Source: Escherichia coli
GTDB lineage: Bacteria; Pseudomonadota; Gammaproteobacteria; Enterobacterales; Enterobacteriaceae
Direction: 5' to 3' (one strand)
Length of the DNA: 64,000 nucleotides
Assembly: GCF_030013205.1 (NCBI RefSeq)
Contig: NZ_CP122648.1
Made by a program: the position numbers. This document shows, in pieces, positions 22,791 through 25,700 of the stretch; the first letter of the stretch is position 1; the number at the start of each line of letters is the position of its first letter.

Positions 22791-25700
22791 GTCATCCTCT
22801 CAGACCAGCTAGGGATCGTCGCCTAGGTGAGCCGTTACCCCACCTACTAGCTAATCCCATCTGGGCACATCCGATGGCAAGAGGCCCGAAGGTCCCCCTC
22901 TTTGGTCTTGCGACGTTATGCGGTATTAGCTACCGTTTCCAGTAGTTATCCCCCTCCATCAGGCAGTTTCCCAGACATTACTCACCCGTCCGCCACTCGT
23001 CAGCGAAACAGCAAGCTGTTTCCTGTTACCGTTCGACTTGCATGTGTTAGGCCTGCCGCCAGCGTTCAATCTGAGCCATGATCAAACTCTTCAATTTAAA
23101 AGTTTGATGCTCAAAGAATTAAACTTCGTAATGAATTACGTGTTCACTCTTGAGACTTGGTATTCATTTTTCGTCTTGCGACGTTAAGAATCCGTATCTT
23201 CGAGTGCCCACACAGATTGTCTGATAAATTGTTAAAGAGCAGCTGCGACGCGGCTTTCAGCTCACTGTCGCGAGGTGGCGTATATTACGCTTTCCTCTTT
23301 CAGAGTCAACCCTGAATTTCAGGGTTTTTCTCTTCAACCGAACCGGCTGTTTGTGTGAAGTGATTCACATCCGCCGTGTCGATGGAGGCGCATTATAGGG
23401 AGTCGGCTCAGGAAGACAAGCGGAAAAATGCATTTTTATTTCAACCGCTCATCTTTTAATCATTACGCCGGTTTTTGCTGCTTTTTTATCGCTTGCGGCA
23501 GGTCTGCCAGGCTATTTAACACCCAATCTGCCGCGTTTTCTGCTTCAGGTGTAATAAGTTTACCCGTACGCACCAGCACTTTTGTTCCCACGTTCGCCGC
23601 AGCCGCTGCCTGCATATCTTCTAATTTATCGCCCACCATATAAGAAGCGGCCATATCAATATGCAAATAATCGCGTGCCGATAAAAGCATCCCCGGATGT
23701 GGTTTGCGGCAGTCGCAGACCTGGCGAAACTCTTCAACACTACCCTGCGGATGATGCGGGCAATAATAGATACCATCCAGATCGACATCGCGGTCCGCCA
23801 GCGACCAGTCCATCCACTCGGTCAGCGTTTCAAACTGTGCTTCAGTAAATTTACCGCGAGCAATGCCAGACTGGTTGGTTACTACCACCAGCGCAAAGCC
23901 CATTTTTTTTAGCTCGCGCATGGCGTCAATAACACCGTCGATAAATTCAAAGTTGTCGATCTCATGGACATAGCCGTGATCGACATTAATGGTGCCATCA
24001 CGGTCAAGAAAAATTGCGGGTACGCTCTTCGCCACCTTTTATAGCTCCTTAATAAGGCATGTGACGCTAGTATCGCATGTTTCGACCAGCAAGAAAGTGC
24101 TCTTCGCATAAACCTGATTGATTTAGACGTCTGGATACCTTAACATCCATTTCATTGACGGCGTTGCCCGTTCCAGGCATTCGAAATGCCACGACTAACT
24201 TAATGACGATAATAAATAATCAATGATAAAACTTTCGAATATCACCAAAGTGTTCCACCAGGGCACCCGCACCATCCAGGCGTTGAACAACGTCAGCCTG
24301 CATGTGCCAGCTGGACAAATTTATGGCGTTATCGGTGCCTCAGGCGCGGGTAAGAGTACGCTTATACGTTGTGTAAACCTGCTGGAGCGCCCAACCGAGG
24401 GTAGCGTGCTGGTCGATGGCCAAGAACTGACCACGCTGTCAGAATCCGAGTTGACCAAAGCTCGCCGCCAGATTGGTATGATTTTCCAGCATTTTAACCT
24501 GCTCTCTTCGCGTACTGTTTTTGGCAACGTGGCTCTGCCGCTGGAGCTGGACAACACACCGAAAGATGAGATCAAACGTCGCGTGACGGAGTTGCTGTCA
24601 TTGGTTGGTCTTGGCGATAAGCATGATAGCTACCCGTCGAATCTTTCCGGTGGGCAGAAACAGCGTGTGGCGATTGCCCGTGCGTTAGCCAGCAATCCCA
24701 AAGTATTGCTGTGTGATGAGGCCACCAGCGCGCTGGATCCGGCAACGACACGTTCTATTCTCGAACTGCTGAAAGACATCAACCGCCGTCTGGGTTTGAC
24801 GATTCTGTTGATCACCCACGAAATGGACGTTGTGAAGCGTATTTGTGATTGCGTGGCGGTCATCAGCAATGGCGAACTGATCGAGCAGGACACGGTAAGT
24901 GAAGTGTTCTCGCATCCGAAAACGCCGCTGGCGCAGAAGTTTATTCAGTCGACCTTGCATCTGGATATCCCGGAAGATTACCAGGAACGTCTGCAAGCGG
25001 AGCCATTCACTGACTGCGTGCCGATGTTACGTCTGGAGTTTACCGGTCAATCGGTCGATGCCCCACTGCTTTCTGAAACCGCACGTCGTTTCAACGTCAA
25101 CAACAACATTATTAGCGCGCAGATGGATTACGCCGGTGGCGTTAAGTTCGGCATCATGCTGACTGAAATGCACGGCACACAACAAGATACGCAAGCCGCC
25201 ATTGCCTGGCTGCAGGAACACCATGTAAAAGTAGAGGTACTGGGTTATGTCTGAGCCGATGATGTGGCTGCTGGTTCGTGGCGTATGGGAAACGCTGGCA
25301 ATGACCTTCGTATCCGGTTTTTTTGGATTTGTGATTGGTCTGCCGGTTGGCGTCCTGCTTTATGTCACGCGTCCGGGGCAAATTATTGCTAACGCGAAGC
25401 TGTATCGTACCGTTTCTGCGATTGTGAACATTTTCCGATCCATCCCGTTCATTATCTTGCTGGTATGGATGATTCCGTTTACCCGCGTTATTGTTGGTAC
25501 ATCGATTGGTTTGCAGGCAGCGATTGTTCCGTTAACCGTTGGTGCAGCACCGTTTATTGCCCGTATGGTCGAGAACGCTCTGCTGGAGATCCCAACCGGG
25601 CTAATTGAAGCTTCCCGCGCAATGGGTGCCACACCGATGCAGATCGTCCGTAAAGTGCTGTTGCCAGAAGCACTGCCGGGTCTGGTGAATGCTGCGACTA

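What the first reader, a model, noticed from the sequence alone, without database searches (positions are those of the whole stretch)
24117..24140. Met box upstream of metN
An exact AGACGTCT octamer followed by a degenerate repeat lies in the gmhB-metN divergent promoter region, consistent with MetJ repression of metNIQ (known biology, seen directly here).
Basis: partly seen in the sequence, partly recalled or inferred. Interest (0 to 1): 0.15.

Follow-up and report, generated by a model that had tools for sequence, protein, structure and literature searches.

The report
Known MetJ operator at metN promoter
This is the well-known binding site of the methionine repressor MetJ, lying on top of the promoter of the E. 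coli methionine importer genes metNIQ; it is ordinary, except that this strain carries a rare one-base variant of the site that seems to have arisen several times in E. coli.

Summary
AGACGTCT sits at 24125-24132 in the 187-bp gmhB/metN intergenic region of an E. coli window. One octamer is not beyond chance (0.54 expected per window). The array of three in-register boxes at 24125-24148 (AGACGTCT-GGATACCT-TAACATCC) is the top scorer in the window, and only 2 of 300 shuffles reach it. It matches the published K-12 metN operator at 23 of 24 bases and lies the same 74 bp from the ATG. By homology to the mapped K-12 TSS, the boxes cover -29 to -6, filling the spacer and the -10. All 21 Enterobacterales loci sampled keep the array; 0 of 42 loci outside the MetJ-bearing orders have one. 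Published reporter and delta-metJ data show repression. The only new point is the window's G24137A change in box 2 (-1.4 bits). It occurs in 38 of 5,426 complete genomes but on about ten haplotype backgrounds, whereas the 15-bp operator core has only one other allele, which is clonal. Novelty: already known. Interest: low.

The parts
24118..24123 (+). -35 hexamer TTGATT of the metN promoter (4/6 to TTGACA)
   Evidence: It lies a 17-bp spacer upstream of TAACAT and at -36..-31 from the TSS mapped in K-12 (Kim 2012 Table S1). It is conserved as TTGAYT in 20 Enterobacterales genera, with 4 of 6 columns invariant. The promoter assignment is inferred from the TSS position and consensus spacing.
24125..24132 (.). 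Met box 1, AGACGTCT (perfect consensus, 12.58 bits), -29..-22
   Evidence: It is identical to box 1 of the published K-12 operator. Seven of 8 columns are invariant across genera.
24133..24140 (.). Met box 2, GGATACCT (4/8, 2.83 bits), -21..-14; carries the rare G-to-A change at 24137 (K-12 has GGATGCCT, 4.22 bits)
   Evidence: This allele is in 38 of 5,426 genomes. Box 2 is the least conserved box across genera; positions 24133, 24136 and 24137 vary.
24141..24148 (.). Met box 3, TAACATCC (4/8, 3.63 bits), -13..-6; its first six bases are the -10 hexamer TAACAT (24141-24146)
   Evidence: Seven of 8 columns are invariant across 20 genera.
24154..24154 (+). metN transcription start (A), assigned by homology to K-12 position 222714
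   Evidence: Kim et al. 2012 (PMC3415461) Table S1 gives the TSS at 222714, minus strand, 83 reads, 5'UTR 69 nt, with the -50..+1 sequence TCGCAT...CATTTCA. That sequence is identical to window 24104-24154 except at the SNP. An equivalent TSS is reported for K. pneumoniae with the same -35, boxes and -10. It has not been measured in this strain.
24154..24222 (+). 69-nt 5'UTR of metN
   Evidence: It has no Rfam family and folds no better than shuffles (z = 0.30).
24223..26755 (+). Regulated operon metN (24223-25254), metI (25247-25900), metQ (25940-26755): the D/L-methionine ABC importer
   Evidence: NCBIfam TIGR02314 MetN 701.8 bits, NF008049 MetI 452.5 bits, NF008285 MetQ 570.1 bits, all above their curated cut-offs. 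RefSeq annotation of identical genomes agrees.
23463..24035 (-). gmhB, the divergent neighbour (context only; not predicted to be MetJ-controlled)
   Evidence: NCBIfam TIGR00213 333.6 bits. The met boxes lie 90-113 bp upstream of its start codon and about 50 bp or more from the conserved putative extended -10 at 24069-24077 (inference).

Best explanation
Window 24125-24148 is the MetJ operator of the metNIQ operon. It consists of three contiguous 8-bp met boxes that fill the spacer between the -35 (TTGATT) and cover the -10 (TAACAT) of the single mapped metN promoter. When methionine, and hence S-adenosylmethionine, is plentiful, MetJ dimers carrying SAM bind the adjacent boxes, one dimer per box. 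At least two adjacent boxes are needed for repression. The perfect box 1 is expected to nucleate binding onto the two weak boxes. The bound array occupies -29 to -6 and so keeps RNA polymerase off the promoter, which shuts down synthesis of the high-affinity D/L-methionine importer. When methionine is scarce, MetJ leaves and the operon is transcribed. What is shown: the sequence, its register, its identity to the validated K-12 operator, its position relative to the mapped TSS, and its conservation. What comes from the literature: repression by MetJ and one dimer per box. What is inferred: steric occlusion as the mechanism, nucleation from box 1, and the assumption that this strain's variant box 2 still works.
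For: The array matches the published three-box K-12 operator at 23 of 24 bases and has the same 74-bp gap to the ATG. Its three-box score is the window maximum, and only 2 of 300 shuffles reach it. With the TSS at window 24154 by homology, the boxes sit at -29..-6. A 31-bp island at 24118-24148 has a mean majority-base fraction of 0.94 with 22 of 31 columns invariant across 20 Enterobacterales genera; the flanks score 0.55-0.61 with no invariant columns. Among metN loci retrieved by protein similarity, 36 of 38 from MetJ-bearing orders pass the published met-box rule, against 0 of 42 from Bacteroidota, Halomonadaceae, Negativicutes and others, where the best three-box sum is 3.7 bits (Fisher p = 1e-20). 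The Ec.metN upstream region gives a repression ratio of 0.05 in wild type versus delta-metJ (PMC3228920). metNQI is up-regulated in delta-metJ (PMC12977542). metNIQ is listed as a core MetJ regulon member (PMC4239095). Each MetJ homodimer binds one 8-bp box, and repression needs two or more adjacent boxes (PMC3228920 Methods). The variant operator's total of 19.04 bits is still above the published E. coli metC (18.92) and metK (14.97) operators.
Against: Nothing was measured in this strain. With G24137A, box 2 scores 2.83 bits. That is just under the 3.15-bit per-box cut-off of Augustus & Spicer, so their rule applied literally finds no site in this window; the authors themselves call these thresholds arbitrary. 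The primary metD papers (Merlin 2002, Gal 2002) and Marincs 2006 could not be read. The gel-shift figure is held only as images, so direct MetJ binding to the metN fragment could not be verified from the text. The -35 and -10 assignments rest on the TSS position and consensus spacing, not on mutagenesis.
Confidence: 0.95

Rival explanations
1. The octamer is a chance palindrome (it contains an AatII site, GACGTC) with no regulatory role.
For: A single perfect octamer is expected 0.54 times in 64 kb, and 42 of 100 shuffles contain one. Boxes 2 and 3 match the consensus at only 4 of 8 positions.
Against: The three-box sum is matched by only 2 of 300 shuffles. The site is nearly invariant across 20 genera while its flanks diverge. 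Met-box arrays are present upstream of metN in MetJ-bearing orders and absent outside them. Published repression data also contradict this reading.
Confidence: 0.01
2. The conserved island is conserved only because it is the core promoter (-35, spacer, -10), and MetJ control of metNIQ is indirect.
For: The island coincides exactly with -36..-6. Box 3 is also the -10 hexamer, so its invariance could be explained by RNA polymerase alone.
Against: Promoter spacers are normally free to vary in sequence (established knowledge). Here the spacer, which is boxes 1 and 2, is as conserved as the hexamers and spells the met-box consensus. Vibrionaceae, Aeromonas, Pasteurellaceae and Orbaceae have differently arranged upstream regions that still contain tandem met boxes. 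Augustus & Spicer used this operator as a known site when building their matrix.
Confidence: 0.03
3. The operator is bidirectional and also represses the divergent gene gmhB.
For: The two genes share the 187-bp intergenic region. MetJ operators are shared by divergent pairs elsewhere, such as metE/metR and metJ/metB.
Against: The boxes lie 90-113 bp upstream of the gmhB start codon. They are at about -63 to -86 from the putative gmhB start inferred from a conserved extended -10, TGCGATACT, at 24077-24069 on the minus strand (inference). gmhB (LPS heptose synthesis) has no link to methionine. Augustus & Spicer show that sharing an intergenic region is not sufficient: exbB, next to metC, is bound but not regulated. 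No gmhB TSS is listed in Kim 2012.
Confidence: 0.06
4. In this strain the G24137A change in box 2 materially weakens MetJ binding, so metNIQ is partly derepressed. On this reading the site is a functional regulatory variant, not simply the K-12 operator.
For: The change lowers box 2 by 1.39 bits and puts it below the published per-box cut-off. It breaks the 5-bp inverted repeat GGATG/CATCC. It recurs on about ten haplotype backgrounds, although five neighbouring G:C-to-A:T transitions are absent from 5,424 genomes.
Against: A at box position 5 (equivalent to T at position 4) is the second most common base in natural met boxes, at 218 of 832 half-boxes. Photorhabdus, Arsenophonus and Rosenbergiella have A at this position in their metN operators. 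The total score stays above other functional E. coli operators. Position 24137 is one of the few positions that also vary between genera, which fits a tolerated, near-neutral site.
Confidence: 0.15

Closest known systems
E. coli K-12 metN (metD / abc-yaeE-yaeC) MetJ operator
   Same: Same locus and same three boxes in the same register. It is 74 bp from the ATG and covers -29..-6 of the same promoter; 23 of 24 bases are identical.
   Different: There is one transition, G-to-A at box 2 position 5 (window 24137). It is found in only 38 of 5,426 complete E. coli genomes and lowers the matrix score from 20.43 to 19.04 bits.
Other E. coli MetJ operators (metA, metB/metJ, metC, metE/metR, metF, metK, mmuP)
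   Same: All are tandem, unspaced 8-bp met boxes resembling AGACGTCT, 2-4 per site as scored in Table S1, and bound by MetJ with SAM.
   Different: metN combines one perfect box with two weak ones, whereas metA, metB and metF have four intermediate boxes. The box 1/box 2 junction is T-G rather than the T-A of the idealised tandem consensus (sequence). The metN operator is not shared with a second met gene.
metN operators of Vibrionaceae and Aeromonas
   Same: Met-box arrays lie upstream of the orthologous transporter, which supports an ancestral MetJ-metNIQ link.
   Different: They have three or four stronger boxes (27-35 bits, for example ATACGTTT-AGACGTCT-AGACGTAA-AAATATCT), lie further from the ATG (74-171 bp), and their sequence cannot be aligned with the enterobacterial operator.

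Membership tests
MetJ operator (tandem met boxes) | Two or more directly adjacent 8-bp repeats resembling AGACGTCT, in register with no spacing | tested here: met
   There are three in-register boxes at 24125-24148, scoring 12.58, 2.83 and 3.63 bits. The neighbouring octamers score -9.9 and -19.4 bits. The three-box sum is the window maximum, and only 2 of 300 shuffles reach it.
MetJ operator (tandem met boxes) | Detection heuristic of Augustus & Spicer 2011 (a search threshold the authors call arbitrary, not a biological definition): every box at least 3.15 bits and the site total at least 12.58 bits | tested here: inconclusive
   The total of 19.04 bits passes. Box 2 at 2.83 bits misses the per-box cut-off by 0.3 bit because of G24137A, while the K-12 allele (4.22 bits) passes. 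Salinivibrio shows the same near-miss.
MetJ operator (tandem met boxes) | Overlaps or adjoins the core promoter of a methionine-related transcription unit | tested here: met
   The boxes span -29..-6 of the metN promoter, using the K-12 TSS transferred by sequence identity. The downstream genes are metN, metI and metQ.
MetJ operator (tandem met boxes) | Orthologous to an experimentally characterised operator | tested here: met
   The intergenic region is 99% identical to K-12. The operator matches at 23 of 24 bases and has the same 74-bp gap to the ATG. The K-12 upstream region gives a repression ratio of 0.05.
MetJ operator (tandem met boxes) | Conserved where MetJ exists and absent where it does not | tested here: met
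   36 of 38 loci from MetJ-bearing orders have a site, against 0 of 42 elsewhere. The assignment of lineages as MetJ-bearing follows PMC3228920 and PMC4239095, not a metJ search done here.
MetJ operator (tandem met boxes) | SAM-dependent binding of MetJ to this DNA, and MetJ-dependent repression, for this allele | not testable with these tools
   This needs EMSA or footprinting and a reporter assay with the GGATACCT allele. Published data cover the K-12 allele only.
MetJ operator (tandem met boxes) | An intact metJ gene in the same genome | not testable with these tools
   metJ lies far outside this 64-kb window (in K-12 it is b3938, against b0199 for metN). The source strain's genome was not identified uniquely.

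The most novel reading that the evidence does not exclude
The window's box 2 variant (G24137A, GGATGCCT to GGATACCT) is a recurrently arising cis-regulatory mutation that slightly loosens MetJ repression of the D/L-methionine importer and is favoured in some niches. It is rare (38 of 5,426 genomes) yet sits on about ten unrelated 5.7-kb haplotypes and seven local haplotypes. Two of the backgrounds are within 1-2 SNPs of G-allele genomes (K-12-like and O157:H7-like). Meanwhile the rest of the 15-bp operator core has only one other allele in 5,424 genomes, and that allele is clonal. Four of the ten clusters include swine isolates and two include poultry isolates. Those livestock are commonly fed synthetic DL-methionine (my own knowledge; the link is speculation). 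The alternatives not excluded are a mutational hotspot at a tolerated position, or spread by very short recombination tracts.
Probability: 0.12. Interest if true: 0.45.

Novelty: already known. Interest (0 to 1): 0.13.

Why it matters
As a MetJ operator it adds nothing new. It confirms that a tool-free reader can recognise a textbook regulatory site, and it corrects the site's boundaries: three boxes at 24125-24148, covering -29 to -6. The by-product is more useful. In 5,424 E. coli genomes the 15-bp operator core has exactly three alleles, and the one in this window recurs on many backgrounds. If that recurrence reflects selection, it would be a natural example of fine-tuning a repressor site for an amino-acid importer. 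It would also be a cheap marker to test against host or diet. It further shows that fixed per-box thresholds in regulon scanners can drop a real operator because of a single tolerated SNP.

Tried and rejected
1. Treating the exact octamer as significant on its own was rejected: 0.54 copies are expected, and 42% of shuffles have one.
2. Applying the published met-box thresholds literally gave zero sites in the window, because box 2 falls 0.3 bit short. I used threshold-free sums and shuffles instead.
3. The primary papers could not be read: Merlin 2002, Gal 2002, Marincs 2006 and Thomason 2015 are not held. Literature searches for a metN TSS or for metN/gmhB intergenic mutations found nothing.
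4. The gel-shift supplement is images only, so MetJ binding to the metN fragment could not be confirmed from the text.
5. A MetR-type site (TGAA-N5-TTCA, up to 1 mismatch) does not occur in 24036-24222.
6. A riboswitch or other known RNA in the 5'UTR was ruled out: there is no Rfam match apart from a sub-threshold miRNA chance hit, and the fold gives z = 0.30.
7. G24137A as a motif-wide base-calling artefact at GGATG sites was rejected: only 1 of 16 GGATG/CATCC sites in 5.7 kb shows the change, and the genomes come from many laboratories and years.
8. Templated (quasi-palindrome) mutagenesis was rejected: there is no GGATACC or GGTATCC copy within 1.5 kb, and the change breaks the local inverted repeat rather than perfecting it. 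The site is also not in a Dcm (CCWGG) context (sequence).
9. A single clonal origin of the A allele was rejected by the haplotype distances.

Full report
WHAT IS THERE. The window is Escherichia coli. The 371 bp around the site are 100% identical to several porcine ETEC and O139:H1 chromosomes, and the region is present in 5,424 of 5,426 complete genomes. The finding lies in a 187-bp intergenic region (24036-24222). On one side is gmhB (23463-24035, minus strand). On the other is metN (24223-25254, plus strand), followed by metI, metQ and rcsF. All of these match their NCBIfam models above the curated cut-offs. The rrnH-type rRNA operon on the far side of gmhB completes K-12 synteny, in reverse orientation.

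CHECK OF THE OBSERVATION. AGACGTCT occurs exactly once in the window, at 24125-24132. By itself this is not beyond chance: 0.54 copies are expected in 64 kb, and 42 of 100 shuffles contain one. I scored the region with the published MetJ information matrix (Augustus & Spicer 2011, PMC3228920, Table 3).
- The octamers in register score 12.58 (AGACGTCT), 2.83 (GGATACCT) and 3.63 bits (TAACATCC).
- The flanking octamers score -9.9 (ATTGATTT) and -19.4 bits.
So the element is a three-box array at 24125-24148. The three-box sum of 19.04 bits is the highest in the window (next best 11.74), and only 2 of 300 dinucleotide-preserving shuffles of the whole window reach it.

IDENTITY WITH THE KNOWN OPERATOR. 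Table S1 of Augustus & Spicer lists the K-12 metN (b0199) site as agacgtct ggatgcct taacatcc: three boxes, 20.45 bits, 74 bp from the start codon. The window has the same array at the same 74-bp distance, with one difference: G-to-A at 24137, which is position 5 of box 2. The change lowers box 2 from 4.22 to 2.83 bits. That is just under the authors' per-box threshold of 3.15 bits, so their rule applied literally finds no site anywhere in this window. They describe those thresholds as arbitrary. The total still exceeds their scores for the E. coli metC (18.92) and metK (14.97) operators.

POSITION IN THE PROMOTER. Kim et al. 2012 (PMC3415461, Table S1) mapped a single metN TSS in K-12 at 222714 (minus strand, 83 reads, 5'UTR 69 nt). 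Their -50..+1 sequence is identical to window 24104-24154 apart from the SNP. Transferred to the window, the TSS is the A at 24154.
- The -10 is then TAACAT (24141-24146), followed by 7 nt to +1.
- The -35 is TTGATT (24118-24123), with a 17-bp spacer.
- The three boxes occupy -29..-22, -21..-14 and -13..-6.
The operator therefore fills the spacer and covers the -10. The same paper gives an equivalent TSS in Klebsiella pneumoniae with an identical -35, boxes and -10, although the sequence further upstream differs. The simple promoter scanner did not report this promoter because each hexamer matches at only 4 of 6. The hexamer assignment is an inference from the TSS.

CONSERVATION. I retrieved metN loci from one genome per species by protein similarity, which is blind to the operator, and scanned the 250 bp upstream of each.
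- All 21 Enterobacterales loci carry AG[A/C]CGTCT-[A/G]GA[T/C][G/A]CC[T/C]-TAACATCC, 61-103 bp from the ATG.
- Vibrionaceae, Aeromonas, Psychromonas, Orbaceae and one of two Pasteurellaceae loci carry differently arranged met-box arrays.
- In total, 36 of 38 loci from MetJ-bearing orders pass the published rule.
- None of the 42 loci from Bacteroidota, Halomonadaceae, Negativicutes and other lineages pass; their best three-box sum is 3.7 bits (Fisher p about 1e-20).
In an alignment of 20 Enterobacterales genera, the island 24118-24148 has a mean majority-base fraction of 0.94, and 22 of 31 columns are invariant. The flanks score 0.55-0.61 and have no invariant column. The conserved spacer spells the met-box consensus, which a promoter alone would not require.

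HOW IT WORKS. According to the literature read here, each MetJ homodimer binds one 8-bp box, and repression needs two or more adjacent boxes (PMC3228920 Methods). SAM is the co-repressor (PMC12977542). The K-12 metN upstream region fused to lacZ gives a repression ratio of 0.05 in wild type versus delta-metJ. metNQI is up-regulated in a delta-metJ transcriptome, and metNIQ is a core member of the reconstructed MetJ regulon (PMC4239095). Combined with the anatomy, the best-supported mechanism is steric occlusion: up to three SAM-loaded MetJ dimers on -29..-6 exclude RNA polymerase from the only mapped metN promoter when methionine is abundant. Nucleation from the perfect box 1 onto the weak boxes 2 and 3 is my inference. 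No MetR-type site and no known RNA element were found in the region. The boxes lie 90-113 bp from the gmhB start codon. They are about 50 bp or more from a second conserved island (AGTATCGCATG, 24069-24079) that reads TGCGATACT on the gmhB strand, a plausible extended -10. I therefore do not expect MetJ to control gmhB. The exbB/metC pair shows that a shared intergenic region is not sufficient for regulation.

THE VARIANT IN THIS WINDOW. I used 41-nt megablast queries centred on the operator. A mismatch in the central 15 nt leaves no 28-nt seed, so each query counts one allele only. The results were:
- K-12 allele, GGATGCCT: 5,354 genomes.
- Window allele, GGATACCT: 38 genomes.
- AGATGCCT: 32 genomes.
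These sum to 5,424, which is every genome that has the region. Five other neighbouring G:C-to-A:T transitions gave no hit. The AGATGCCT carriers are all bovine or O157:H7-type genomes, many from a single isolate series, and look clonal.

The window allele is different. Seventeen swine isolates share the window's haplotype at 99.9% or more over 3 kb, and the next-closest genomes (99.6%) are not carriers. The other carriers come from humans, cattle, poultry, water, soil, lettuce and other pigs. Over 5.7 kb, the 21 A-allele sequences examined (the window plus 20 carrier genomes) fall into about ten clusters separated by more than 30 SNPs. Two of those clusters also contain G-allele genomes at 1-2 SNPs (K-12 and O157:H7). 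There are seven different local haplotypes within 24030-24185. The change is not a GGATG-motif artefact, since only 1 of 16 such sites is affected. There is no nearby template for it, and it breaks rather than perfects the GGATG/CATCC inverted repeat.

Positions 24133 and 24137 are also among the few island positions that vary between genera. Three other genera have A at 24137, and A at box position 5 is the second most common base in natural boxes. My reading is that this is a tolerated position hit repeatedly. Whether the recurrence reflects a hotspot, very short recombination tracts or weak selection cannot be decided here. The share of swine and poultry among the clusters is suggestive (about p = 0.006 against a crude 8% base rate), but it is post hoc and rests on 12 sampled rows for the base rate.

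VERDICT. The element is the already-known MetJ operator of metNIQ, and interest is low. The recurrent box 2 variant is a minor but real curiosity worth a cheap follow-up.

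Noticed in passing
window 24137 (box 2 position 5; -17 from the TSS): The G-to-A operator variant is present in only 38 of 5,426 complete E. 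coli genomes but sits on about ten distinct 5.7-kb haplotype backgrounds and seven local haplotypes. Two backgrounds are within 1-2 SNPs of G-allele genomes (K-12-like and O157:H7-like). Seventeen carriers form the window's own porcine ETEC/O139 clade.
   Followed up: yes
window 24130-24144 (operator core): Across 5,424 E. coli genomes this 15-bp core has exactly three alleles (5,354 + 38 + 32). Five other neighbouring G:C-to-A:T transitions are absent, including C24144T, which would improve the -10 to TAATAT, and C24138T, which would strengthen box 2 by 4.7 bits.
   Followed up: yes
window 24133 (box 2 position 1): A second variant, G-to-A giving AGATGCCT (+2.2 bits, and it restores the T-A junction between boxes 1 and 2), occurs in 32 genomes. 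All are bovine or O157:H7-type, so it is apparently one clonal sublineage. Clonality was judged from names, hosts and genome sizes only.
   Followed up: partly
window 24069-24079, minus strand: A second conserved island in the intergenic region, AGTATCGCATG (mean majority-base fraction 0.92 across 20 genera), reads TGCGATACT on the gmhB strand. That is a plausible extended -10 promoter for gmhB, with a start near 24062. No gmhB TSS is listed in Kim 2012.
   Followed up: partly
window 24133-24148: Boxes 2 and 3 form a 5-bp inverted repeat, GGATG-CCTTAA-CATCC, in the common allele. G24137 is the loop-closing base, and the window's A allele breaks that pair. Whether this makes the base hypermutable is unknown.
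   Followed up: no
window 24157-24190 (metN 5'UTR): There are two small predicted hairpins, ACGGC...GCCGU-like at 24157-24172 and GGCAUU-CGA-AAUGCC at 24176-24190. GGCA...TGCC is kept within Enterobacteriaceae, and Yersinia and Hafnia have a different hairpin (CTTTGG...CCAAAG) at the same place. The single-sequence fold is not better than shuffles (z = 0.30), and there is no Rfam match.
   Followed up: partly
L024, L035, L039-L047 versus L048-L059: MetN of Bacteroidota (labelled Pedobacter caeni 73%, Flavobacterium 64-65% identity to E. coli MetN) is closer to the enterobacterial protein than MetN of the gammaproteobacterial Halomonadaceae (55-59%). This hints at horizontal transfer of metNIQ between Bacteroidota and the Vibrio/Enterobacterales lineage. 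These loci have no met boxes.
   Followed up: no
L036 (Rodentibacter rarus), L054 (Salinivibrio sharmensis): These are the only two loci from MetJ-bearing orders that fail the published met-box rule. Salinivibrio fails by one sub-threshold box (three-box sum 18.6 bits), the same near-miss as in this window. Rodentibacter has a degenerate array (6.1 bits).
   Followed up: no
window 23463-24035 (gmhB): gmhB is 573 nt (190 codons) here and in several strains, but 576 nt in K-12 and others. This is a length polymorphism at the 3' end of the gene among E. coli lineages.
   Followed up: no
L093 (E. coli C5, cow), locus 2191-2266: The rRNA operon next to gmhB in this strain has a tRNA-Glu spacer instead of the tRNA-Ile/tRNA-Ala spacer seen in the window, in K-12 rrnH and in the other strains. 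The rrn spacer type has been swapped at this locus.
   Followed up: no
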